From positions 1-24,740 of the IMG/VR virus record IMGVR_UViG_3300020200_000168: a stretch of DNA of 24,740 nucleotides. One strand, given 5' to 3'. Shown piece by piece: positions 1 to 22,412 of the stretch. Position 1 is the stretch's first letter. The number at the start of each line of letters is the position of its first letter. Made by a program: the position numbers and the translations under genes. The notes beneath the pieces were generated by a model that saw only the letters and a list, made by a program, of their open reading frames with translations, made no database searches and was not told the origin of the DNA. This DNA comes from a virus (lineage: Duplodnaviria; Caudoviricetes).

Positions 1-63
1 CCGAAGTCGGGGATGGGGCGGGGGTGGCCGCAGGGGATGGGGTCTGGGAGATGGGAGATGGGG
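1..63. repeat. In-frame linker repeat, copy A (may extend beyond the window)
   Basis: 63/63 identical to 829-891; encodes PSPISQTPSPAATPAPSPTS on the minus strand. Confidence 0.95.
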
Positions 64-3000
64 CGGGGGCGGAGTCAACGGCGGCTTTGCCTGCTTGGGT
101 CGAAGCCACTTCCCCGACATACTTAGTGCCGGGAAGAATCTTGAAGGCTCCCTTCACCTCGTTGCCCACTTTGTCTTCGGCCTCAAACTCGGTGCGGGCC
201 TCGACGGTTGTGGTCAGGTTGTTGTTGTTTCTGTCCTGGTAGCGAACCTCCCAGAGCCGCAGGGGCTTGCCTTGGGCGGCTTGCATTTGCTCTACCCATT
301 GGCGGTCGTCCTTGCTCACGCCGGACTCAGAGTAGCCTTTGGGCGGCTTGGTAGAAGTCTCCAACCGCTTCGCCTTCTTGAGCAACTCGGCTAGGTTCTC
401 CTTGGTGTTCCAAACCGTGAACGTGCCGTCGCCGGGAATCTCAATGGTGACTTTGCGAAGGCCGGACTTCTCAACAGCGGCTTCCCAAGCCCTTCGGTTT
501 TGTTCAACGTGCTCGGCGTGCAACTTCCGGCCTCGCTCGCCACCATACATGGCATCCGAACCTCTCGGCACGTATGGCCCCTTTCCCAAGGCAGTAGCCT
601 GCTCGCGTGTCATTGGTTGCGCCTGCGCCACGGCCTTCTCCAGCTCGGCGATGAGTTTTGCCTTGGCGTCTTTTGCGTCTGCTCCGCCTTTGGCAGACTT
701 GGCGACGGGTTTGCTGATAAAGCGGAGGTTGTCCATGCCGCCTTGCATGGCGGGCGCGGCCTCCGCTGGCGGCGCAGGCTGCTCCCCCGGCTCTGCTGGG
801 CGAACCTCGGCGGGTTTGGTTTGGGGAGCCGAAGTCGGGGATGGGGCGGGGGTGGCCGCAGGGGATGGGGTCTGGGAGATGGGAGATGGGGTGGGAGCTT
901 TGGACACCAGCGCACCAGTCGAGTCCATCGTGCCAGCGGCAATCTCCCGCAAGTCTCTGACCGTGTGCTCGATGGTTTGATACACCGACTCGTCCCACCG
1001 TTTCCAGTTAATGTCCCGAGGGCGGCGGGCATTGTGCTGATTGATGGCTTCCTTGGATTTGGCCTTGGCAATCGCTTCCGCCTCTTCGAGTGACTTCCCA
1101 GCACGGAGCGCGTCGCGTAGGTCATACATCGCACCCTCACGCCAGCGGTAGTCAATGTTGCCGGAGCCGGCCGCAAGCCCGCGGCCGCCTTCCGTCTCCG
1201 AGGCAACGCCCGAAGCTCTCTGGGCCATTCGGGACAAGTAAAGTTCAGCGTCTTTGGAGAACGTGTAGGCGGCGGGAGCGGGTTGCGCTGGAGCCGCAGG
1301 GGATGGGGCGGGGGCGGCCGCAGAAGATGGGGTCTGGGAGATGGGAGATGGGGTGGGGGCGGCGGTTGGCGGCACGTAGAGGTCGCCTTCGCGGGTCCAG
1401 CCTGCGGGGAGCTTGATGCGGTAGGCGTCAACGGCTGCGGTGGAGACGGGCAATTCGTTAATCACCGCCTCTTCGATAGCGTTTCGATGCAGGGAAAGCT
1501 CCTGCCTTCCACTGACCAAACCTTGGGCCAAGGCATACCGCATTGCCGCGCCTCGTAGTTGTCTTTGTTCTGTCTCCGACTTGGTTCCAAAATCATTTAA
1601 CCACTCCTCCGGCGTCATCTGCTCCACCGGCTTTGGGGTCGGGGTGGGTGCGGGCGCGGGTTCGGGCGTGGTCCAGCGGTCGGAGGTTCTTGGCATCTCG
1701 CCGCCGAGGCCGTAGTCCAGTTCGGTCGGGGCGGGTTCGACGGCGGGCTGAACCGGAGTTTGCTTGGGCGTCTGTTGGCGAGTGGCGAGCCACCGCGTGT
1801 AATCTTCTTGCAGTTTCCTCTGTTCTGCCTCCGGTAGTTTTCGCGCTTGCTCGATCGTAATTCCGCGCTCAGCAAGAAATTCATTCTGAGTGGCTCTCGC
1901 TTCATCTATCGCCCTCAAAATATCGGCACCTAGACCGGTCCCGTGGCCGTTCACATCGCCCTCGGGCGCTGGCGCGGGTGCGGGGGTGAACTCCTCGACG
2001 GTCAGGTCGGTGACGGGGCCTTTGGTGGCGAGGATGGCGTTGATGGTGTCCAAGGGCGTGCCGGCGGGGAACTCGATCTCCGTGGGGCGACCCGAGGCGT
2101 CGGTGAAGCGGACGGTGCGGGCGGGCTCGGGAGGAGGGGTGAAGGTGGGAGCGTCTTGGGTCTGGGGTCTAGGGGCCGGGGTCGGGGGGATGGGTTCTTG
2201 GGTCGTGGTTGTTGGTTCTTGGGTCGGGGGGCGGTTGGCGAGGTCGCTCACGCCTTTAACGGCGGTCACGGGGCCGGCGACGAGGGCTCCGGCGAGGGCG
2301 GCTTCGGTGGCTTCCTCGATGGCTTGGGCCATGGTCATGTCGGGCCGGTAACTCATCCGCGCCACGGCCGCCTGGCCGACTTGGTCCCAGAACTCCTCGG
2401 CGCCTTCGTGCACGCTCTCGCGCGCGACCGACCGCGCCAACTGCTTGAACGTGCCCGTGCGGACCGCGTTCTGAAGCCCCTCGATGCCGGTCGCGCCAAA
2501 GCCGCGCGTGATCAGCCCGGTCACGACACCGCTCGCCAAGGCAGGGGCGAACGCCTTCACGCGGGCTTGCTCGCGGGTCAAGTTGGGCGCGGCCTTGAGA
2601 TAGGCTTGCTCGGCCTCGTCGGACGTGCTAACGAAACTCTGGGCCGCCGCGGCCAAGGCGCTTGCGGGCAAGCCGACCGGGGCGACGGCAAGGCTGGGCA
2701 GCATCGAAGTCGCGCCCGCGGCGACGGTCCGGGCGAGTTCGGGCCCTTGCACCTCGCGGCCGAGTTCCTCCCACTCTTGGGCCTTGGCCTGGGCGATGTC
2801 GGCCGCGCCTTGGAAATGGCGCGAGACGGCGCGGGCGGTGTCGGGCGCGAGCCTGGAGAGCAAGCCACTCGGAGTTAACACGTTGAAGGGGTAGTCCGGG
2901 TTGGTGCCGAGTTCGAGCAGGCGGTTGCCTTGCTGGCCGAGTTGCGCGAAGCCTTTGGCGAGTCCGATGCCGGATTGCGACCAGAAGCCGCCTTGCTGAA

Positions 3001-3265
3001 GCGGTTCGGGCGCGAGCGGCTCGGGCAGCTTGCTCGGGGGATACTGGCGGTCGAGCGCGGCGCCCTCGGCGCGGGCTTGGGCCACCTCGACGGCGAGGCG
3101 GTCGCGCGCGAGCGCCCGGGGGTCGGGTTGCGGCTCGGGCTCAGGCGCGGGCGCGGGCGCGGGCTGGCCGAACTTGCGCCGGAGCACGCCGAGGATGTCC
3201 TCGCGCGACATGGAATCGGGAAACTCCACGTCGCCGACACCCCGCACTTGCACGGTGATGGGCAT
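1..3265 (-). CDS. Giant internal virion/ejection protein (large polyvalent-type), truncated by window edge, >1088 aa
   Basis: Absent from the ORF track because it has no stop in the window. The ATG at 3265 overlaps the upstream TAA (TAATG). Manual translation gives MPITVQVRGVGDVEFPDSMSREDILGVLRRKF..., an Ala/Gly-rich helical region (...RESVHEGAEEFWDQVGQAAV...), then modules joined by Pro/Ser/Thr linkers, open to base 1. It is the third and largest gene after the GNAT, as in podovirus core modules. Confidence 0.8.
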   Translation of the reverse strand, partial: MPITVQVRGVGDVEFPDSMSREDILGVLRRKFGQPAPAPAPEPEPQPDPRALARDRLAVEVAQARAEGAALDRQYPPSKLPEPLAPEPLQQGGFWSQSGIGLAKGFAQLGQQGNRLLELGTNPDYPFNVLTPSGLLSRLAPDTARAVSRHFQGAADIAQAKAQEWEELGREVQGPELARTVAAGATSMLPSLAVAPVGLPASALAAAAQSFVSTSDEAEQAYLKAAPNLTREQARVKAFAPALASGVVTGLITRGFGATGIEGLQNAVRTGTFKQLARSVARESVHEGAEEFWDQVGQAAVARMSYRPDMTMAQAIEEATEAALAGALVAGPVTAVKGVSDLANRPPTQEPTTTTQEPIPPTPAPRPQTQDAPTFTPPPEPARTVRFTDASGRPTEIEFPAGTPLDTINAILATKGPVTDLTVEEFTPAPAPAPEGDVNGHGTGLGADILRAIDEARATQNEFLAERGITIEQARKLPEAEQRKLQEDYTRWLATRQQTPKQTPVQPAVEPAPTELDYGLGGEMPRTSDRWTTPEPAPAPTPTPKPVEQMTPEEWLNDFGTKSETEQRQLRGAAMRYALAQGLVSGRQELSLHRNAIEEAVINELPVSTAAVDAYRIKLPAGWTREGDLYVPPTAAPTPSPISQTPSSAAAPAPSPAAPAQPAPAAYTFSKDAELYLSRMAQRASGVASETEGGRGLAAGSGNIDYRWREGAMYDLRDALRAGKSLEEAEAIAKAKSKEAINQHNARRPRDINWKRWDESVYQTIEHTVRDLREIAAGTMDSTGALVSKAPTPSPISQTPSPAATPAPSPTSAPQTKPAEVRPAEPGEQPAPPAEAAPAMQGGMDNLRFISKPVAKSAKGGADAKDAKAKLIAELEKAVAQAQPMTREQATALGKGPYVPRGSDAMYGGERGRKLHAEHVEQNRRAWEAAVEKSGLRKVTIEIPGDGTFTVWNTKENLAELLKKAKRLETSTKPPKGYSESGVSKDDRQWVEQMQAAQGKPLRLWEVRYQDRNNNNLTTTVEARTEFEAEDKVGNEVKGAFKILPGTKYVGEVASTQAGKAAVDSAPAPSPISQTPSPAATPAPSPTS
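829..891. repeat. In-frame linker repeat, copy B
   Basis: Exact copy of 1-63; the offset of 828 nt equals 276 codons. Confidence 0.95.
1299..1360. repeat. In-frame linker repeat, copy C
   Basis: Matches 9-70 with 4 mismatches in 62 nt; the offset of 1290 nt equals 430 codons. Confidence 0.9.
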
Positions 3266-4212
3266 TAACGCACCTCTTCGAGATCGTTGGTCTGGGGGTT
3301 GAACCTGAACTTCTTGGCGCCCGTCTGAGCGGGGGCGGTCGGGGCCGGAGCGCGGAAGCTGTCGCGCTCCTTCTCGAGCTTCTTGCGATGAGCGCTTGCG
3401 GCGTCGAAGGCTTGGCGGAGCGAGTCGTCGGACGGACGGGCGCGATACTTGGCGAGGGCCTCGCTCTCGGCGGCGAGGGCCTTGTAGTAAGCGCTTTCGA
3501 GCGCGGCGGGCGGCTTGGGGGCGGGCTCGGTCTTGGGCTCGGGTTTCTTGATGTATTGCACGCCACCGCGGGATGTCCGCACTGTGAAGTAGCCTGGGAT
3601 CTCAGGGCCTTGGTCGGGGTCCGCACCTTGCTCCCAGCCGGCGGGGAGAATCTGCCTGCCGCGAACGACGAAGGCCGCGCCGGTGATTGGATGGGTGAAG
3701 GTGCCGGTGGTGAGGTCTCCATTGCTGTCGTCGAGCAACATGCGGCTCAGGTCGGCGGGGTTCACGCCTCGGGCGGCGTCGGGGTTGTCTTGCAAGGCGG
3801 CGGCGTAGGCTTCGAGCGGTTGCATGGAGCGGAGCGGGGCCGACCCGGTGCCGGGTTGATACCCTGCGGCGTAGCGGGCGAGGGATTGGGCGAAGCCGGG
3901 CATGGCGGCTTGGCTCGCGGCGATGCGAGCCTCGCGCTCGGATTCGAGCAGGTGACGGCTCATGTCGAGGTTCGCCCGGCGCTCGGCGTCTAGCCGGATG
4001 CTCTGGGCTTCCTTGCCGCGGACGAGGCCCTTGAGCGAGTCGAGGTTCAGGGGCGTGGAGACGTCCTTGGAGACGCCGTGGGCGACCTCGGCGTATTCCT
4101 GAAGGGCCTTGAACTCGCGTGCGCGGTCGCGCTCGGCTTCCTGCCGCTTGGCAATGGCGTCAAAGGCCGCGCTCAAGCCGCGCGGACCGCTGGTCGTGTC
4201 GTAGTCAGGCAT
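3265..4212 (-). CDS. Putative internal virion/ejection protein, 315 aa
   Basis: Helical Ala/Arg/Glu-rich ORF ending KKFRFNPQTNDLEEVR; lies between the pilot-like gene and the giant gene. Confidence 0.65.
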   Translation of the reverse strand: MPDYDTTSGPRGLSAAFDAIAKRQEAERDRAREFKALQEYAEVAHGVSKDVSTPLNLDSLKGLVRGKEAQSIRLDAERRANLDMSRHLLESEREARIAASQAAMPGFAQSLARYAAGYQPGTGSAPLRSMQPLEAYAAALQDNPDAARGVNPADLSRMLLDDSNGDLTTGTFTHPITGAAFVVRGRQILPAGWEQGADPDQGPEIPGYFTVRTSRGGVQYIKKPEPKTEPAPKPPAALESAYYKALAAESEALAKYRARPSDDSLRQAFDAASAHRKKLEKERDSFRAPAPTAPAQTGAKKFRFNPQTNDLEEVR

Positions 4213-16527: not shown

Positions 16528-17586
16528 TCACCGCAAGAGCGGCATGGTTTTGAGCACCGCGCTCAGCCCGTCATCGTCGCCCGACCTCAACCGCTGCATG
16601 GCAGCGGCCTTTTCCGAATCAGAACTGTGGGGCCTTGGGGCCGCGCCCGCGCCTGGAGGCTTGGGCACCGGCTTGGAGGCGCCGTTGAGCCGCGCCGTGG
16701 CTGCGGCCGTGTCGTCCGCCTTGAGGGCGAGCAACCCGCGCACGAAGATGGCGCCGGCCATTTTCCAATGGGCGAGCCGCTTGATCTCCGGCAGCGTTTC
16801 GAGCACGGCGTTGAACTGCTGGAACTCCGCGCTCTTGTTGTCCTTGAGCCACGGGAACTGGGCCTCGGCCTTGCGGTTGAAGTCCGCCTCGGTGCGTTTC
16901 CACGTGTCGCGCGCCTGCCGCTCCTCGAACGAAGCCTTGGCGCGGAGCGCGTTGGCGTCGTCCCGTGCGGCTTCGAGCGCGGCCCGCAAGGTCTCCGGTT
17001 CGTAATCCGGCACCTGCACCTTGGCCTGGTTGAACCACTCGGCGGTGCGCTCGGGGTCCTGGTTGAGTTCCCTGAGTTTCTCGCGCACCGTGGCCAGCGC
17101 GCGCTCGGCGATCTCGCGGTCCTTGACCCACGGTTCATCACCGCGGGGGGCTGGACTGGATTCTGCCGGCGGCTTGGCCGCCTTGAGGTCTTCGAGCTCC
17201 TTTCGCGCCGTCTCCAGCGCTTCCTCGGCCGCCTTGCGCCGGGCCACTTCCTTGCCGATGCGGCGCTCGAACTTGTCGGCGCCCTTGGGCTCGTCGTGAT
17301 CCGGGCCGGGCTCCGAGTCGCCCTGCTCCTGGTCCTGATTCAGTTTTGAAGGATCGTCCGTCGATTCGGCGACTTCGCCCGGTTGCCCGGTGTCCGTCGT
17401 TTCGCCCCCTGCGTCTGCCTGCGGGGCCGCGTCGCCTTCCGGCTTGGCGATGCCCAGCAAGCGGGCCAGGGCGCCCGTCAACTGCGCTTTCTGCGTTGCG
17501 TCTGCCGCAGCGTTTTGAGCCGGCTGCGCGGCCACCGTGGTTTCGGCTTGCGCCGGGGCTTGTCCACCGCCCCCTTGAGAGTTCAT
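16528..17586 (-). CDS. Capsid scaffolding protein, 352 aa
   Basis: The likely start is the ATG at 17586 (MNSQGGGGQ...). Acidic disordered N-terminus, KFERRIGKEVARRKAAEE coiled coil and Pro-rich C-terminal tail; immediately precedes the capsid gene. Confidence 0.8.
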   Translation of the reverse strand: MNSQGGGGQAPAQAETTVAAQPAQNAAADATQKAQLTGALARLLGIAKPEGDAAPQADAGGETTDTGQPGEVAESTDDPSKLNQDQEQGDSEPGPDHDEPKGADKFERRIGKEVARRKAAEEALETARKELEDLKAAKPPAESSPAPRGDEPWVKDREIAERALATVREKLRELNQDPERTAEWFNQAKVQVPDYEPETLRAALEAARDDANALRAKASFEERQARDTWKRTEADFNRKAEAQFPWLKDNKSAEFQQFNAVLETLPEIKRLAHWKMAGAIFVRGLLALKADDTAAATARLNGASKPVPKPPGAGAAPRPHSSDSEKAAAMQRLRSGDDDGLSAVLKTMPLLR

Positions 17587-17730
17587 TCGGGTCAGCGCGT
17601 TTGGAGGAGCCGCGCAGACGCTCCATGGGCCAGTGTTCACGCGCCTCGCGGCGCACCGCCCAACACAGAACGGCGGTGATTGCGCCTGATGAAAAGCACG
17701 AGGCGGGCGTGGTGTAAACAGACCTCCTTC

Positions 17731-17770
17731 TACAACCGTCCAAAACCGACCAAAACAGGCCAAACTTTCT
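17731..17770. promoter_or_regulatory. Phased 10-bp direct repeats upstream of the structural operon
   Basis: tacaaccgtc-caaaaccgac-caaaacaggc-caaactttct lies in the ~200-nt intergenic gap ahead of the scaffold gene. Confidence 0.45.
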
Positions 17771-17789
17771 TGAAGAAGAACTGCGGTTA

Positions 17790-17990
17790 CTACACCGGAA
17801 GGCCGATGATCTGGGCGACAACGACTTTTCTGAAGCGCCGGCCCTTGCCGCGACCGACGACAGCGGGGCGGAGCTGGCCATCGCGGGCGGCGGCTTCCTG
17901 GCGGAACGTCTCGATGCTCCATCCCGTGGCGGCAAGCACCTGGGCCCGGCGCAACAGGAACGGCAGACGTTGAAACTCGGCGGCGGTCAT
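17790..17990 (-). CDS. AlpA/excisionase-like small HTH DNA-binding protein, 66 aa
   Basis: FLLRRAQVLAATGWSIETFR...GRRFRKVVV matches the AlpA/MerR-like winged-helix pattern. Confidence 0.7.
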   Translation of the reverse strand: MTAAEFQRLPFLLRRAQVLAATGWSIETFRQEAAARDGQLRPAVVGRGKGRRFRKVVVAQIIGLPV

Positions 17991-18229
17991 GGGTTGGTGC
18001 CGCGGGCTTTGTCGCGGAGGGTGGTGAGGGCGCGCCAGAACTCGCGCACGCCGCCGACCTTGCCGGCGAGCTGGAGTTTCTCATCGCCGCCCACGCGCTC
18101 GTCCTCGATCGCGTCGAGCAGTTGGTCAAGCACGGCGTCCTTGACGGCGGCGAGCGCGCGCCACTGGGGCGATTCATCGGGCAGCGAGGCGAGGGCCTCG
18201 AGCACGAGGCGTTCGGTCTGGGGGTTCAT
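17987..18229 (-). CDS. Small helical phage protein, 80 aa (resembles the small gene usually found between portal and scaffold)
   Basis: MNPQTERLVLEALASL...QLAGKVGGVREFWRAL; ATGA overlap with the next gene. Confidence 0.6.
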   Translation of the reverse strand: MNPQTERLVLEALASLPDESPQWRALAAVKDAVLDQLLDAIEDERVGGDEKLQLAGKVGGVREFWRALTTLRDKARGTNP

Positions 18230-18231
18230 GG

Positions 18232-18438
18232 TCAGGAGGGGTTGGGGGTGGAGTCGGTCGGGGCGGGTTCGGCGGCCTCGGCGTGGAGCTGGTCGCGGTG
18301 GACCCAGACGCGGACGCCATCGGCGACGCGGACGGCGCGGTGAAAGCCCGGGACGTCTGCCGGCTCGATCGCGGTGATCTCGAAGGCGGGCCCTTCGCGC
18401 TGCTGGTAGAACCATCGGGCCGTCGGGGTCGGGGTCAT
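18232..18438 (-). CDS. Hypothetical protein, 68 aa
   Basis: Fills the gap between the attI-like site and the next gene, with phage-like codon usage. Confidence 0.55.
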   Translation of the reverse strand: MTPTPTARWFYQQREGPAFEITAIEPADVPGFHRAVRVADGVRVWVHRDQLHAEAAEPAPTDSTPNPS

Positions 18439-18450
18439 GAGGTGTTGCGT

Positions 18451-18497
18451 GTATATTGCACAACCGCGGCAGGGTGTCGTATATTCAACTGTTATGC
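18451..18497 (+). other. attI-like integron recombination site (or secondary GTT insertion site)
   Basis: CGTATAT-TCAACT-GTTATGC core (GTT at 18491) with no attC-type hairpin upstream; GTATATT is directly repeated at 18451 and 18479. Confidence 0.55.
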
Positions 18498-19093
18498 GCC
18501 TCGCCGTTGCGCGTGTTCGTGTCCATCTGCCAGCGGTTCTTCACTTCGAGCATCACCGGCGAGTGTGTCCGCTTTTCGTTGAGATGGTCATCTTTACGCC
18601 AGCCATCCTTGACCGGCTTCGTTTGCCCGACGATGCGCCAGCCTGTCCCTCGCAGACTCGCGCCGGATTCGGTTTGGAGCGTGTAGGTTATCAGACGTTG
18701 CCCGCCCATCGCCCGCCACGCCCGCCAGCAGGCTTGGTAGAGCATCGAACACGCGCCTTTCGGGGCGGTTTCGATTGTGCAGACCCGCAGCACTTCGGCC
18801 GTCCATCCGTCCATCAGCGTTGCCGAGAGCGGATTGCCCACTATTGCCACTCCGACCAGCTTCCCGTCGCACGCCAGGCCACACGACCACTTGCCGCCGT
18901 TGCGGGCCGTTCGCCCATTGTGCCGGTGGTAGGCTGCCACGAAGTCGTTGGCTTTCCTCAGAGTCATCGGCACGAGGTATGGTTTTCCAGATTCGACCGG
19001 CGCATAACCAGGCGCTGCACTGAACGCCTGCCCCGCTTCTCCGTTTCGGGGCGGCGCTTCAAGTCCTGGCAGCGTTGTGTCGGCGTGAGTCAT
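18485..19093 (-). CDS. XF1762-family / Mom-like GNAT-fold putative DNA modification protein, 202 aa
   Basis: Motifs LVPMTLRKANDFVAAYHRH, LVGVAIVGNP, AEVLRVCT, ACSMLYQACWRA, RLITYTLQTESGASLRGTGW and K.RW. Confidence 0.85.
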   Translation of the reverse strand: MTHADTTLPGLEAPPRNGEAGQAFSAAPGYAPVESGKPYLVPMTLRKANDFVAAYHRHNGRTARNGGKWSCGLACDGKLVGVAIVGNPLSATLMDGWTAEVLRVCTIETAPKGACSMLYQACWRAWRAMGGQRLITYTLQTESGASLRGTGWRIVGQTKPVKDGWRKDDHLNEKRTHSPVMLEVKNRWQMDTNTRNGEAHNS

Positions 19094-19122
19094 GGTCGGG
19101 CAGGCGTCAGTGAGCTTTCTCG
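18492..19122 (+). mobile_element. Integron-type gene cassette carrying the Mom-like gene in antisense orientation
   Basis: Begins G^TTATGCGCC (18491-18500) and ends in an attC whose R'' side, GGCGCATAAC (18999-19008), is the exact 10-nt reverse complement. This is the signature expected of an integrated circular cassette. Confidence 0.8.
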
Positions 19123-19128
19123 TTAGAC
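19002..19128 (+). other. attC site, 127 bp
   Basis: R'' GCATAAC, 5-nt spacer, L'' GCTGCACT ... L' AGTGAGC, 6-nt spacer, R' GTTAGAC. The arms GCTGCACTGAACGCCTGCCCCG and CGGGCAGGCGTCAGTGAGC pair with extrahelical bases at the canonical positions. Confidence 0.85.
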
Positions 19129-19157
19129 GGCTTCATAAAGCCTTTGGTAATTCGCAC

Positions 19158-19181
19158 GGTCGCTCACCCGGAGCGTTAGCC
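19158..19181 (+). other. Right half of a second, truncated attC site
   Basis: GGTC-GCTCACC (L'), CGGAGC (6-nt spacer), GTTAGCC (R'); no matching left arm in 19129-19157. Confidence 0.6.
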
Positions 19182-19182
19182 G

Positions 19183-19755
19183 TCAGCGTTCGCTCTCGAT
19201 TTGCGCGAGCAGGCGAGCCAGGTCGCCAGTGGTGAATTTGCACGATTGCATTACGACTACGGTTTTACCTACGATTCGATACGGCAGGTTTCCACTCGCA
19301 GGCACAGCTTCCTCGGTGGTTTTCTTGTCCTCGATCCACGCTCGCTGTTCGGCGATTGTCCGGAGCCGGGCCCCAGAGAAGACTTGGGCGGCCTGTGCCG
19401 GTGTCAAATTTCGCACGTCCATTTCGAGGGTTTCGCCGCCTGACACAAGCAGCGTCACCGGCGCGCTCGCGTGCTTCTTTTGGAGTTCGTAGGGCAGCCG
19501 GCGCAGGCGGCGGACGCCGGGGGAGTCATTTAGAAGCAGGTTGGGGTAGAGTTGTTGCCGCCCGATCTGTTCAAAGCGATAGACGGTTTCGGGCGATATG
19601 TCTTTGCATTGGTCGCAGATTTGATCCACGAAGTCGGGATTCTCGTCGATGTTTTGGGCGATGAGCTGGCCCGCCTTGAACCAGCATTCGACGCCTTTGT
19701 TGATGAGGCCGATGATTTCCACGATGTCTGCATTGTTGCGTTTAAGTGTGTTCAT
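19183..19755 (-). CDS. Hypothetical protein, 190 aa (cassette cargo)
   Basis: Start at ATG 19755 (MNTLKRNNADIV..., ATGA overlap). The stop sits 1 nt from the R' box GTTAGCC. The gene is AT-richer than the backbone. Confidence 0.75.
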   Translation of the reverse strand: MNTLKRNNADIVEIIGLINKGVECWFKAGQLIAQNIDENPDFVDQICDQCKDISPETVYRFEQIGRQQLYPNLLLNDSPGVRRLRRLPYELQKKHASAPVTLLVSGGETLEMDVRNLTPAQAAQVFSGARLRTIAEQRAWIEDKKTTEEAVPASGNLPYRIVGKTVVVMQSCKFTTGDLARLLAQIESER

Positions 19756-20192
19756 AGAGTCGTGAGATGTTTTTCTATTTGTGCCGCCGCGTTTGTGGTT
19801 TTGAAGAAGAGGTTTTTGCCAGACCAGTAGCGGTTGCGGGCGCGGTGATGATCCCTGCACCGAAGCGAGCAGTATTTTCTTGATTTGGATTGCGATACGA
19901 TTTCCTTGCCGCAGTATAGGCATTGGCTTTTGTAGCTTTCGACAGTCCATTCGGCGGCGCACCGATTCCGACAGACATAGCCGCCACACATACTTTCTTC
20001 TTTTACTTTGCCGCCACAAACCTCGCATGGCTTTAGGTCTTTTAGTATCCACGGAATGCCTTCGCCTTCCAGGCATTCGTCACTGCATACGCAGTGCGAG
20101 TATGTGCGTGCTTGGAATGGTTTTCCGCAACCCGTGCAAGTTCGGGTTTTGGATGGAGCGCAAATCACTGGAGCGAATGGGGGCGTGGTCAT
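19752..20192 (-). CDS. Multi-zinc-finger protein, 146 aa (cassette cargo)
   Basis: Start at ATG 20192. Three Cys4 units: CTGCGKPF..CSDEC, CEVCGG..CRNRC, CLYCGKE..KYCSLRC. Confidence 0.75.
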   Translation of the reverse strand: MTTPPFAPVICAPSKTRTCTGCGKPFQARTYSHCVCSDECLEGEGIPWILKDLKPCEVCGGKVKEESMCGGYVCRNRCAAEWTVESYKSQCLYCGKEIVSQSKSRKYCSLRCRDHHRARNRYWSGKNLFFKTTNAAAQIEKHLTTL

Positions 20193-20596
20193 AGCGGGCG
20201 GTGGGAGGAGGTGCCGAGGCGGCGGTCGAGGTCGGTGTGGAGGTTGGCGGCGTCGCGCTCGGCGAGTTCGGCGCGGATCGTGGCGGTGGCTTCGTTCCAT
20301 GAGATGCCGGGCGAGGTGTTGGCGGGGCCGCGGGCGCCGCAGGAGGCGCACATGACGGCGCCCACGCTCGGGTTCACATGGGGAAGGTCCGGCGGGGGCT
20401 CGGGCAGGAAAGCCGAGGACTCGCCGCAGAAGGGGCAGGGGTTGAGTTTCATGCTAGACTCCGGTGTTGGAACGGGACGGGAAACTTGCAAACCCGGATA
20501 AACACGGATGCCAAGGGCTTGCGGAAGCGGATTTCGGTCTCTGAATCCGTGTCCATCTGTGTTTATCCGTGGTTGAACTGTGGTTTCCAGGTTCAT
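20189..20596 (-). CDS. Lar-like restriction-alleviation zinc-ribbon protein with repeat-derived leader (alternative start 20452)
   Basis: MKLNPCPFCG...VMCASCGARGP...WN is the Lar-family pattern; it is in frame with an upstream ATG at 20596 supplied by the repeat. Confidence 0.7.
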   Translation of the reverse strand: MNLETTVQPRINTDGHGFRDRNPLPQALGIRVYPGLQVSRPVPTPESSMKLNPCPFCGESSAFLPEPPPDLPHVNPSVGAVMCASCGARGPANTSPGISWNEATATIRAELAERDAANLHTDLDRRLGTSSHRPL

Positions 20597-20598
20597 GG
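20480..20598. repeat. Palindromic ACACGGAT-type element, left copy (one 10-nt unit shorter)
   Basis: 20495-20598 matches 20731-20834 at 102/104 nt; both copies share the GGAAACTTGCAA end. Confidence 0.9.
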
Positions 20599-20832
20599 TG
20601 TGATCTCCATCGCGGCGCGGACGAACTCGGCGCCGAGGGGCGCGACAATCGCGTTGCCATAGCCTCTCAGCAGGGCGACGCGACCGGGGAAGGCCGTGGC
20701 GAGCAGGAAACTTGCAACCACGGATGGACACGGATAAACACGGATGCCAAGGGCTTGCGGAAGCGGATTTCGGCCTCTGAATCCGTGTCCATCTGTGTTT
20801 ATCCGTGGTTGAACTGTGGTTTCTAGGTTCAT
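20593..20832 (-). pseudogene. 79-aa ORF: repeat-derived leader fused to the C-terminal remnant of a C5 DNA methyltransferase
   Basis: ...LLATAFPGRVALLRGYGNAIVAPLGAEFVRAAME resembles motif X and the final helix of phage C5-MTases; no other MTase motifs are present. Confidence 0.65.
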
Positions 20833-20834
20833 GG
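20706..20834. repeat. Palindromic ACACGGAT-type element, right (complete) copy
   Basis: Inverted arms 20716-20745 and 20781-20810 are each built of three 10-mers and are 25/30 complementary, enclosing a 35-nt loop. Confidence 0.9.
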
Positions 20835-22412
20835 GTCGTTGGATTCGGGCGGGAGCCATTCGTCGGGCTGGGCGGGTGGGGGCGAGGCGGGTTTGATGCG
20901 TTCGCCTTTGTTGGCTTGCTCGTGGCCGTGGCGGACTTTCCAGGCGTGCCAGTCCTCGAAGCGGAACTGGTTTTTGTGGAAGAGCAGCTCGATCTTGCCG
21001 GTGGCGCCGTCACGGTTTTTGGCCACGAAACCGTTGATGCGCTGCGGAAGTTCGCTCCACTCGACCTGCCGGGTTCCGCCGGAGGTGTAGTGGTCGAAGA
21101 TGAGGTCGGTGTCGTCGGGCGGCGGGTCCTCGCCCTTGCGCGGGCGCTTGCGCTCGGGGAAGTAGAGGAAGAGGACGGCGTCGGAGTCCTGCTCGATGGC
21201 GCCGCAGTCGCGCAGGTCGGACATGACGGGGACGCGATGGCTTTCGGCCTGCTCGATGTTGCGGTTCATCTGGGCGAGGATGATCCACGGGACGTTGAGG
21301 TCTTTCTTGAGCTGGACGAACTGGGCGGAGATGTCGGTGAGTTCCTGGACGCGGTCGATGCGGCCGCTGCGGCGGTCGGGCAGGACGAGCTGAAGGTAGT
21401 CGAGGACGAAGCACTTGACGCCGAACTCGCGGACCATGCGGCGGGCCTTGGCGGCGATCTGGCTGATGGTCTGGCTGGGCTGGGAGTCAAGGGCAATGCG
21501 GGCGCCGGCGACTTGCGGGGCGGTGTTGAGCAGGGCTTGAAGGTCGGCGTTGGACATGAAGCCTTGCTTGAACTTGCCGGCGCTGACCTGGGCTTCGCCA
21601 AAGAGCATGCGGCGGCCAAGGCTCTTGGCGGACATCTCGAGCGAGAAGACGCCGACGGGGATGCCGGTCTGTTTCAGACCCGCCTCGTTGGTATGTTCAT
21701 AGCGAAGGGTAAGGTGGCTGACGATGTTGAGGGCGAGCGTGGTCTTGCCGCTGCCGGGACGGCCGGCGAGGACGACATAGCCATCCTCGGGGATGCCGCC
21801 GAGGACCTTGTCCATGTAATCGAGGCCGGTGGGGAGCCCGTCGATCTGGAGGCCGCCCTTGTGGTAGTGCTCGATGTGGGCGAGGGCGGCTTGGACGGCG
21901 GGGCGGAAGTCCCAGCAGTCTTGCTGGGTGGTGACCTCGGCGGTGGCGCGGTGGACGGTCTCGGCGGCGGCGTTGACGAAGGCGCCGACGTCGGGGCCGG
22001 TGTCGGCGGTCATGGCCTGGGCGCAGACTTTGGAGCACGCGGCGATGACGCGGCGAAGGCGCCACTTGTCGCGGAGGGTGTCGATGAAGAGCGGGAGGCG
22101 GGAGCGCAAGGGCGACTCGTTCATCCACTGGCCAAGGCCGGGGAGGCCGCCGGCGGCGTTGAGGATGTCGGGCGTGGCCTTGAGCGTCTCGTAAATGACG
22201 TGGTAATCGACTGTGCGGCCGTCGCGGGCGATCTTGAGGACGACGTCGAACACGTTGCGGAAGCGGTGGTCGAAGAACCAGTCGGGCGTGGCGCCGGCCT
22301 GGAGGACGACGTCGAGCGCGGCGTGGCCGTCCTGAAGGATGGCGCCGAGGACGGCCTGCTCCGCCTCGGGGGAGTAAGGCGGGAGCGAGTCGGTGGGGGT
22401 GGGAGGGGTCAT
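20829..22412 (-). CDS. dnaB: Replicative DNA helicase, DnaB family, 527 aa
   Basis: PPYSPEAEQAVLGAIL N-domain, Walker A GRPGSGKT, FSLEMS, LDYLQL, AQMNR, SDLRDCGAIEQD and AKNRDGATG. Confidence 0.97.
   Translation of the reverse strand: MTPPTPTDSLPPYSPEAEQAVLGAILQDGHAALDVVLQAGATPDWFFDHRFRNVFDVVLKIARDGRTVDYHVIYETLKATPDILNAAGGLPGLGQWMNESPLRSRLPLFIDTLRDKWRLRRVIAACSKVCAQAMTADTGPDVGAFVNAAAETVHRATAEVTTQQDCWDFRPAVQAALAHIEHYHKGGLQIDGLPTGLDYMDKVLGGIPEDGYVVLAGRPGSGKTTLALNIVSHLTLRYEHTNEAGLKQTGIPVGVFSLEMSAKSLGRRMLFGEAQVSAGKFKQGFMSNADLQALLNTAPQVAGARIALDSQPSQTISQIAAKARRMVREFGVKCFVLDYLQLVLPDRRSGRIDRVQELTDISAQFVQLKKDLNVPWIILAQMNRNIEQAESHRVPVMSDLRDCGAIEQDSDAVLFLYFPERKRPRKGEDPPPDDTDLIFDHYTSGGTRQVEWSELPQRINGFVAKNRDGATGKIELLFHKNQFRFEDWHAWKVRHGHEQANKGERIKPASPPPAQPDEWLPPESNDP

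What the first reader, a model, noticed from the sequence alone, without database searches (positions are those of the whole stretch)
19002..19128. attC doubles as a translational junction: stop, start and N-terminus are encoded in the recombination site
Seen: on the minus strand the attC right arm reads AAC GAG AAA GCT CAC TGA. This stop is in the same frame as the crossover AAC used by the Mom-like gene end, so a gene entering in that frame terminates there. Thirteen nt later an ATG (19093) in the attC loop starts MTHADTTLPGLEAPPRNGEAGQAFSAAPGYAP, about 30 residues encoded by the attC, before the conserved LVPMTL domain start. The zinc-finger gene begins with a similar peptide (PPFAPVICAP vs QAFSAAPGYAP). 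Inference: cassettes are plug-compatible units that stay translatable after shuffling.
Basis: partly seen in the sequence, partly recalled or inferred. Interest (0 to 1): 0.8.

Follow-up and report, generated by a model that had tools for sequence, protein, structure and literature searches.

The report
Phage integron with back-to-front cassettes
In this phage an integron-type DNA swap site sits in front of its gene instead of behind it and spells the stop of the incoming gene plus the likely start and first 30 amino acids of the next one, a layout shared by many related phages that would let them reshuffle genes, several of them predicted DNA-modifying enzymes, without breaking translation.

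Summary
Observation confirmed. 19002-19128 is an attC whose recombining (bottom) strand is the coding strand, the reverse of ordinary cassettes. The full phage record also encodes an integron integrase (above the TIGR02249 cut-off) with a second such array and an attI-like site. Among clearly called cassettes, viral ones code on the bottom strand (68 vs 11); bacterial cassettes of the same attC family code on the top strand (37 vs 1). Of 48 single-gene phage cassettes, 31 exit in the AAC frame and 11 stop on the R-box TAA; 29 of 30 genes that cross the swap point unstopped do so in the AAC frame. 121 of 132 phage attCs hold an AAC-frame stop (bacterial: 27 of 66), and 30 of 48 genes have an in-frame ATG inside the attC. 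Neighbours switch exactly at AA|C, including for this Mom-like gene. Caveats: two exit and two entry designs exist; here a 9-codon remnant ORF enters, 13 nt before the ATG; no translation or recombination data. Nine paper searches found phage attC arrays but not this architecture. This scan noted the same layout in at least 17 other genomes.

The parts
19002..19128 (-). attC; minus strand is the bottom (recombining) strand and the coding strand. R' 19128-19122, L' 19115-19109, loop 19097-19034, extra bases T19024 and C19017, L'' 19021-19014, R'' 19008-19002; predicted crossover AA|C between 19123 and 19122
   Evidence: bottom-strand definition from PMC5027507 passages
19107..19109 (-). TGA in the AAC frame, inside the 5' arm
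19091..19093 (-). ATG in the attC loop; the only ATG in frame upstream of the conserved KPYL motif; no Shine-Dalgarno match
18485..19093 (-). Mom-like / XF1762-family gene, 202 aa; residues 1-30 encoded by the attC; ends through its own AAC in frame
   Evidence: phrog_1384 E 3e-32 from residue 39; NF045478 158 bits, cut-off 50, from residue 40
18492..19122 (-). the 631-bp inferred cassette unit: attC first, then gene; its end GCATAAC is the exact complement of R'' GTTATGC
   Evidence: neighbours of relatives switch at both ends
18479..18497 (-). attI-like terminal site that supplies the stop (AAC AGT TGA); the same 15-nt motif occurs once more in the phage, 40 nt before the integron integrase start
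19123..19181 (-). remnant cassette: attC 5' arm (AAC 19177) whose AAC-frame TGA overlaps ATG 19136; 3' arm and gene body missing
19107..19136 (-). micro-ORF MKPSNEKAH*, the ORF that enters the attC in the AAC frame
20155..20185 (-). degenerate attC 3' arm inside the first codons of the zinc-finger gene; no GTT box, no 5' arm
19752..20192 (-). zinc-finger-like gene, 146 aa; ATGA overlaps with the Lar-like gene upstream and the 190-aa gene downstream
19183..19755 (-). 190-aa gene with no Pfam, PHROG or NCBIfam hit; stops before the 19177 arm

Best explanation
The site is an attC of a phage-borne integron whose cassettes are built back to front, so the attC heads its gene, supplies the stop of the incoming reading frame and likely the start and first 30 residues of its own protein, and would keep the operon translated after an integron integrase swaps cassettes at AA|C. 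Shown from sequence: (1) the attC polarity; (2) the cassette unit [C-attC-gene-AA], because neighbours change exactly at AA|C and the attC stays with the downstream gene; (3) an integron integrase, an attI-like site and a second array in the same phage record; (4) frame rules across many phages. A gene either stops before or on the R box (often its TAA) or crosses with AAC read as Asn, and almost every attC holds a stop in that frame, often overlapping its ATG. Inferred, not shown: recombination of the folded bottom strand by the phage's IntI (or a host's); translation of the whole array from the upstream operon toward intI; re-initiation at the attC ATG by ribosomes that have just unwound the RNA hairpin, here via the micro-ORF MKPSNEKAH* across a 13-nt gap; and a role as an exchangeable store of DNA-modification genes against host restriction.
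For: Integrase: G001 29479-30459, TIGR02249 272.6 bits vs cut-off 265; nearest solved structure IntI4 2a3v; array and attI-like site directly upstream on the same strand. 27 of 33 viral integrase loci have such attCs upstream on the integrase strand. Strand: 68 bottom, 11 top, 32 unclear of 111 viral cassettes; 36 top, 5 bottom, 28 unclear of 69 control cassettes (Fisher 1e-15); same attC family in bacterial genomes 37 top, 1 bottom, 13 unclear of 51. Frames in 48 single-gene cassettes: 31, 12, 5; in-frame ATG in the attC 30 of 48 vs 12 of 96 control frames, p 2e-9; ATGA overlap 18 of 30. AAC-frame stop inside the attC 121 of 132 vs 67 and 71 in the other frames, vs 27 of 66 in the bacterial family, p 4e-14, and vs a shuffle mean of 78, maximum 91. 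Breakpoints: 7 of 7 discordant viral pairs (five cassette families) break at AA|C, none in the classical sense. Contigs of two runs (X14, X15; one study) carrying a relative of this gene leave the window right after C18491; the X15 loose end reads as another attC arm whose AAC-frame TGA overlaps an ATG. L010 has nearly the same attC before a methyltransferase. Met43 is kept in only 4 of 6 homologues, while K/R-P-Y upstream of it is kept in 4 of 6.
Against: No ribosome, protein or recombination data. No excision joint appeared in four metagenome assemblies (contigs drop rare forms). This array lies about 11.8 kb from intI, and two of its three sites are broken half-sites. The site lacks the modal ATGA overlap and has no Shine-Dalgarno match. 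18 of 48 cassettes start after the attC. 20 of the 68 bottom-strand cassettes were dropped because no single ORF spanned them. The detector is my own, tuned on these sites, and misses Vibrio-type attCs. Gene frames come from an amino-acid log-odds model (37 of 38 correct on annotated genes). The phages are related, so counts are not fully independent. Two viral records carry classical arrays (9 of the 11 top-strand calls), and a 98%-complete phage has an inverted array but no IntI.
Confidence: 0.8

Rival explanations
1. The cassettes are real inverted integron cassettes, but the coding overlap is passive. Genes simply run into and out of the attC, and stops and ATGs fall where they fall.
For: Several exit and entry designs coexist; tails vary from 1 to 26 residues (one call of 122) with no conserved sequence beyond Asn; this site has a 13-nt gap.
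Against: AAC-frame stops in 121 of 132 phage attCs vs 27 of 66 bacterial ones of the same family and at most 91 in 200 shuffles. ATGA overlap in the AAC frame 49 of 132 vs 4 of 66. In-frame ATG 30 of 48 vs 12 of 96.
Confidence: 0.1
2. The array in this window is a fixed relic. The layout was selected in mobile ancestors, but these sites no longer recombine and serve only as operon junctions.
For: The sites at 20161 and 19177 are half-sites; no integrase lies next to this array; no excision joint was seen; in L010 the same attC has lost the G of its GTT box.
Against: The 19002-19128 site keeps all 18 stem pairs and both extra bases, and the cassette's ends are exactly complementary. An intact intI lies in the same phage. 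Close relatives of this gene have other neighbours at exactly C18491. This rival is compatible with the best explanation for the family as a whole.
Confidence: 0.2
3. The hairpins are conserved gene-boundary repeats, and genes are swapped by homologous recombination between them, not by an integron integrase.
For: Some phages with arrays lack IntI; the arms share sequence across phages.
Against: Identity ends at AA|C with only a few shared bases on the other side. The extra-base geometry is that of an IntI substrate. IntI and attI-like sites flank the arrays.
Confidence: 0.04
4. Translation starts at the internal GTG41 or ATG43, and the 30 attC-encoded residues are never made.
For: ATG 19093 has no Shine-Dalgarno match and sits five bases from a stable RNA stem.
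Against: Family profiles match from residue 39-40. KPYL is kept in a homologue without attC that starts MSEKPYL; Met43 is T or I in 2 of 6. The other four starts tested in this operon lack a clear Shine-Dalgarno match too.
Confidence: 0.1

Closest known systems
Integrons: IntI, attI, attC cassette arrays (strand rules in PMC5027507, passages read)
   Same: IntI above the TIGR02249 cut-off; attC with R and L boxes, 6- and 5-nt spacers, two extra bases six pairs apart; crossover at AA|C; intI and attC polarity in the regular arrangement.
   Different: Genes lie on the bottom strand and face intI, so the attC heads its gene and is translated. That paper states that a promoterless cassette in opposite orientation would not be expressed from Pc. 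The first extra base is mostly C (103 of 132), not G.
Phage-borne integrons and CALINs (Qi et al. 2023, PMC9892861; abstract to methods, section 3.4, passages and part 1 of 2 of the supplement read)
   Same: attC arrays in phages, with DNA methyltransferase cargo.
   Different: The paper describes host-type arrays and ascribes odd ones to mosaicism; 'start codon' and 'translation' do not occur in its main text. TJE1 is classical here. Two of its phages look inverted: the strand it calls bottom for P12002L attC1 is the methyltransferase coding strand, and by eye the MW202573 methyltransferase ends KPNV* through an in-frame AAC.
ORF-11 of attI1 and short ORFs inside attC (review PMC8876359; passages and section 3.2 read)
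   Same: An ORF crosses the crossover point, takes its stop from the incoming cassette and boosts the next gene by termination and re-initiation; attC hairpins in mRNA otherwise block ribosomes.
   Different: There it is one leader at attI or an occasional small ORF on the top strand. Here full-length genes end and begin inside the attC at most junctions, on the bottom strand.
Synthetic attC sites embedded in coding sequence (PMC7439510, passages read)
   Same: An attC can encode protein and still recombine.
   Different: Engineered; this is a natural and selected case.
Inverted-integrase integrons of Treponema (10.1101/030866, passages read)
   Same: intI and cassette genes would point the same way.
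   Different: There intI is flipped relative to the attC sites; here intI and attC keep the regular relation and the genes are flipped.

Membership tests
attC site | R'/R'' boxes with AAC and GTT, 5-6 nt unpaired spacers, L boxes | tested here: met
   GTCTAAC, 6 nt, L'; L'', 5 nt, GTTATGC
attC site | Two or three extra-helical bases on the arm opposite the AAC, first and last six pairs apart | tested here: met
   T19024 and C19017; rule from PMC5027507; C rather than the usual G
attC site | Length within 57-141 bp | tested here: met
   127 nt; range from PMC5027507
attC site | Exchange point at AA|C of R' | tested here: met
   7 of 7 discordant viral pairs; relatives of this gene; comparative evidence, not an assay
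attC site | Recombined by IntI as a folded single strand | not testable with these tools
   needs a conjugation or excision assay
Integron | Integron integrase with the IntI-specific insertion and catalytic residues | tested here: met
   TIGR02249 272.6 vs 265; R144, K172, H275, R278, H301, Y310 present; outside the window, in record G001
Integron | attI next to intI | tested here: inconclusive
   AAC-led motif 40 nt before intI, repeated at the end of this window's array; an attI-like match in 31 of 35 loci with a loose pattern fitted after inspection; no validated attI model
Classical integron cassette | Gene on the top strand, attC downstream of the gene, expressed from Pc | tested here: not met
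   gene on the bottom strand, attC upstream
CALIN | Two or more attCs with no intI nearby | tested here: inconclusive
   one intact attC and two half-sites; intI 11.8 kb away in the same phage
Mom-like DNA modification protein (phrog_1384, XF1762 family) | Profile match over the domain | tested here: met
Mom-like DNA modification protein (phrog_1384, XF1762 family) | DNA modification activity | not testable with these tools
   a structure job had not finished

The most novel reading that the evidence does not exclude
A lineage of phages, probably of Verrucomicrobiota, runs its own integron system: a phage-rich IntI clade, compact attI sites and mirror-image cassettes whose recombination site has co-evolved into a translation joint. 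It acts as a shuffled library of DNA-modification and other counter-defence genes. Because polarity is reversed, host cassettes would be silent in the phage array and phage cassettes silent in host integrons, giving two gene pools on one recombination chemistry.
Probability: 0.5. Interest if true: 0.9.

Novelty: new variant of a known kind. Interest (0 to 1): 0.78.

Why it matters
Integrons are known as bacterial devices whose strand choice puts promoterless genes the right way round behind Pc. A phage version with reversed genes and protein-coding attCs shows that the same chemistry supports a second design, in which the order of genes can change while translation stays coupled. It explains odd shared N- and C-terminal peptides on unrelated small phage proteins, and means their starts are easily mis-annotated. 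It offers a concrete site-specific route to phage genome mosaicism and a marker for finding candidate counter-defence genes: 14 of the 15 cassette proteins with a named family are methyltransferase, Mom-like, PAPS-reductase-like or QueC-like. It also provides natural templates for attC sites embedded in coding sequence.

Tried and rejected
Rfam found nothing above gathering scores at 17500-21000. Whole-hairpin folding z-scores were weak and not used as proof. Strand calling from stop-free length alone gave mostly ties (101 of 180) and was replaced by the log-odds model. The protein query for the G001 integrase found only itself and one distant recombinase; alignments reached further. An IQ-TREE run was killed, so only a FastTree tree exists and monophyly was not formally tested. 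Two narrow patterns for phage-type attC arms found nothing in bacterial genomes; one excluded the common GAAC R box, so these blanks are uninformative. No RNA holder was listed. No excision joint was seen in contigs of runs X1, X2, X4, X5; the one long skip (18203-20212, 20 letters on its short side) does not fit an attC boundary. The promoter scan of 18200-21000 gave two weak hits and no clear array promoter. The detector found no attC in the Shewanella and Vibrio phage integrons or in the P12002L and MW202573 arrays, so those were judged by annotation or by eye. The structure prediction never returned, so no fold search was run. Rctr41k, the only GenBank phage with an integrase outside the host-type set, has classical arrays. 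A fixed C-terminal motif ending in His was rejected. Figures and the Dryad annotation file of PMC9892861, and part 2 of its supplement, were not seen; they may show gene orientation in the published phage arrays.

Full report
Setting. The window is a tailed-phage genome segment read on the minus strand: replication genes (DnaD-like loader, DnaB), a Lar-like gene, a lower-GC block at about 18500-20200, then an SU10-type capsid and virion genes. It matches IMG/VR record G001 (41,557 nt, rated complete) at 99.99% over 23,926 nt.

The observation. The site has R' GTCTAAC, a 6-nt spacer, 18 Watson-Crick pairs in L box and stem, a 64-nt loop, two extra bases (T19024, C19017) six pairs apart, a 5-nt spacer and R'' GTTATGC. 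PMC5027507 (passages) defines the bottom strand as the one with the extra bases on the arm opposite the AAC, first and last six pairs apart. The minus strand fits, so the coding strand is the bottom strand, the reverse of classical cassettes. A position-weight matrix from other phage attCs ranks a 3'-arm remnant at 20161, inside the zinc-finger gene's first codons, and a 5' arm at 19177 at the top of the window. Behind the 19177 arm an AAC-frame TGA overlaps ATG 19136, opening MKPSNEKAH*, which enters the intact attC in the AAC frame.

The rest of the phage. G001 encodes an integron integrase at 29479-30459 (TIGR02249 272.6 bits, cut-off 265). Directly upstream, on the same strand, lie four more attCs with PAPS-reductase-like and QueC-like genes among their cargo. 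Three of the four hold an ATG in the loop; the AAC-frame stop overlaps it in two and ends 2 nt before it in the third. Both arrays end in the same 15-nt AAC-led motif, found twice in the record and in none of 100 shuffles of the window; I read it as attI. By eye a promoter-like TTGACA-N16-CAGAAT and an 11-codon leader entering in the AAC frame head the second array.

Polarity across genomes. I wrote a detector for bottom-strand attC geometry. At threshold 13 it gave 290 hits in 1.28 Mb of viral loci and 104 in 0.69 Mb of control loci, with 0 in one shuffle of each. In 27 of 33 viral integrase loci such sites lie upstream of intI on its strand. Cassette bodies, attC excluded, were assigned a coding strand by an amino-acid log-odds model that called 37 of 38 annotated genes correctly. 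Viral cassettes: 68 bottom, 11 top, 32 unclear of 111; 9 of the 11 come from two records with classical arrays. Control integrons: 36 top, 5 bottom, 28 unclear of 69. The best control is the same attC family in bacterial genomes, found with the same 3'-arm pattern (49 of the 80 listed loci by my count of titles are Verrucomicrobiota): 37 top, 1 bottom, 13 unclear of 51.

Where the unit is cut. The near-identical Mom-like cassette of L002-L006 has three different upstream and two different downstream neighbours, each change falling at AA|C. In a systematic comparison, all 7 discordant viral pairs, from five cassette families, break there with the attC staying on the downstream gene; no pair showed the opposite. 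Two are duplicate cassettes within one phage. Contigs of runs X14 and X15 (one study), about 91-93% alike to this gene, leave the window right after C18491. The X15 loose end reads as another attC 5' arm whose AAC-frame TGA, nine codons on, overlaps an ATG. L010 carries nearly the same attC and N-terminal peptide in front of a methyltransferase, while its upstream gene stops on the R-box TAA.

Frame rules. Of the 68 bottom-strand cassettes, 48 are spanned by one ORF; 20 were dropped. Exits: 31 in the AAC frame, 12 in the xAA|C frame (11 on the R-box TAA), 5 in the third frame (4 stopping before the R box). So 29 of the 30 genes that cross unstopped use the AAC frame, and 27 of these stop inside the next attC. 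An in-frame ATG lies inside the cassette's own attC in 30 of 48, against 12 of 96 control frames (p 2e-9); in 18 of 30 it overlaps the AAC-frame stop as ATGA. Over 132 non-redundant phage attCs the first AAC-frame stop falls inside the site in 121, against 67 and 71 for the other frames, 27 of 66 in the bacterial family (p 4e-14) and a mean of 78, maximum 91, in 200 shuffles. The 3' arm is read in the 'F.A..GS' frame in 19 of 30, as here; 18 of 48 genes start just after the attC; only 12 of 48 starts have a Shine-Dalgarno match.

The start codon. Profiles match from residue 39-40. Among six homologues Met43 is T or I in two, and K/R-P-Y upstream of it is kept in four, including one without an attC that begins MSEKPYL. 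ATG 19093 is the only ATG in frame upstream of that motif. As RNA the attC stem forms next to it. The review PMC8876359 (section 3.2) reports that attC hairpins block ribosomes unless a short ORF carries them through, which fits re-initiation after MKPSNEKAH*; this step is inferred.

Integrase lineage and cargo. In a FastTree tree of 80 proteins, 32 viral integrases and one from a Terrimicrobiaceae (Verrucomicrobiota) genome form a clade with support 99; the G001 enzyme joins as a long-branch sister (86), and 6 other viral ones fall elsewhere. That bacterial member has the same attC family in classical orientation. Verrucomicrobiota are therefore the likely hosts, an inference. Of 108 cassette proteins, 83 had no PHROG hit, 10 hit unnamed families and 15 named ones: 8 methyltransferases, 3 PAPS reductases, 2 Mom-like, 1 QueC-like, 1 repressor. 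A counter-defence role follows from general knowledge of these families and is untested.

Against. There are no translation or recombination data and no excision joint. This site lacks the modal overlap, its array is partly decayed and far from intI, and one near-complete phage with an inverted array has no IntI. The detector was tuned on these sites, and related phages inflate the counts.

Novelty. Nine paper searches returned phage attC arrays (PMC9892861), ORF-11 coupling, synthetic coding attCs (PMC7439510, passages) and inverted-integrase integrons (10.1101/030866 and PMC13323075, passages), but no description of reversed, attC-headed phage cassettes. The library lacks most subscription papers. 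Two of the published phage arrays appear to be of this kind without being recognised, while TJE1 is classical. Earlier notes of this scan report the same layout in at least 17 other genomes; they are unchecked, were read after my first reading, and are not counted as evidence.

Verdict. A real, statistically strong feature: a new variant of the integron, with confidence 0.8 in the mechanism as stated and interest 0.78.

Noticed in passing
G001 30491-33330 (L017 10491-13330), outside the window: Second inverted array directly upstream of intI, inserted between the portal gene and the integrases; cargo includes PAPS-reductase-like and QueC-like genes. By eye the attI-like site contains TTGATT-N17-TATAAT just before intI.
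   Followed up: partly
G001 27879-29231: A second, ordinary tyrosine recombinase (450 aa) follows intI; the phage may be temperate.
   Followed up: no
window 20492-20598 and 20728-20834: A 107-nt direct repeat (97% alike) with internal inverted repeats, between dnaB and the Lar-like gene; similar sequence occurs on many unrelated contigs in the laid runs. Not an attC by my detector, and no Rfam match above gathering score.
   Followed up: no
window 1-814: The window's first 814 nt are absent from G001 and repeat 70-91 nt blocks found at 829-898 and 1291-1360; possibly an assembly difference at the contig end.
   Followed up: no
L090 5780 and 12998; L136 3589 and 5558: The same attC plus downstream sequence occurs twice within one phage with different upstream neighbours, as expected from replicative cassette duplication.
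   Followed up: partly
L208 (Terrimicrobiaceae genome) and L053-L055: Long attCs of the same family, with an 8-nt spacer, in classical orientation; the L208 integrase nests among the phage integrases.
   Followed up: partly
L365 (MW202573) 2620-3940: A published phage CALIN that by eye is inverted; its methyltransferase frame is open upstream of the annotated start, back into the attC 3' arm.
   Followed up: partly
L003 4570-4627, L077, L115: In 3 of 31 attI-like sites the AAC-frame stop overlaps the intI start codon, so intI itself could be coupled to the last cassette.
   Followed up: partly
L005 2366 and 5664: Two places in one phage share about 40 nt just before AA|C but continue into different attCs.
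   Followed up: no
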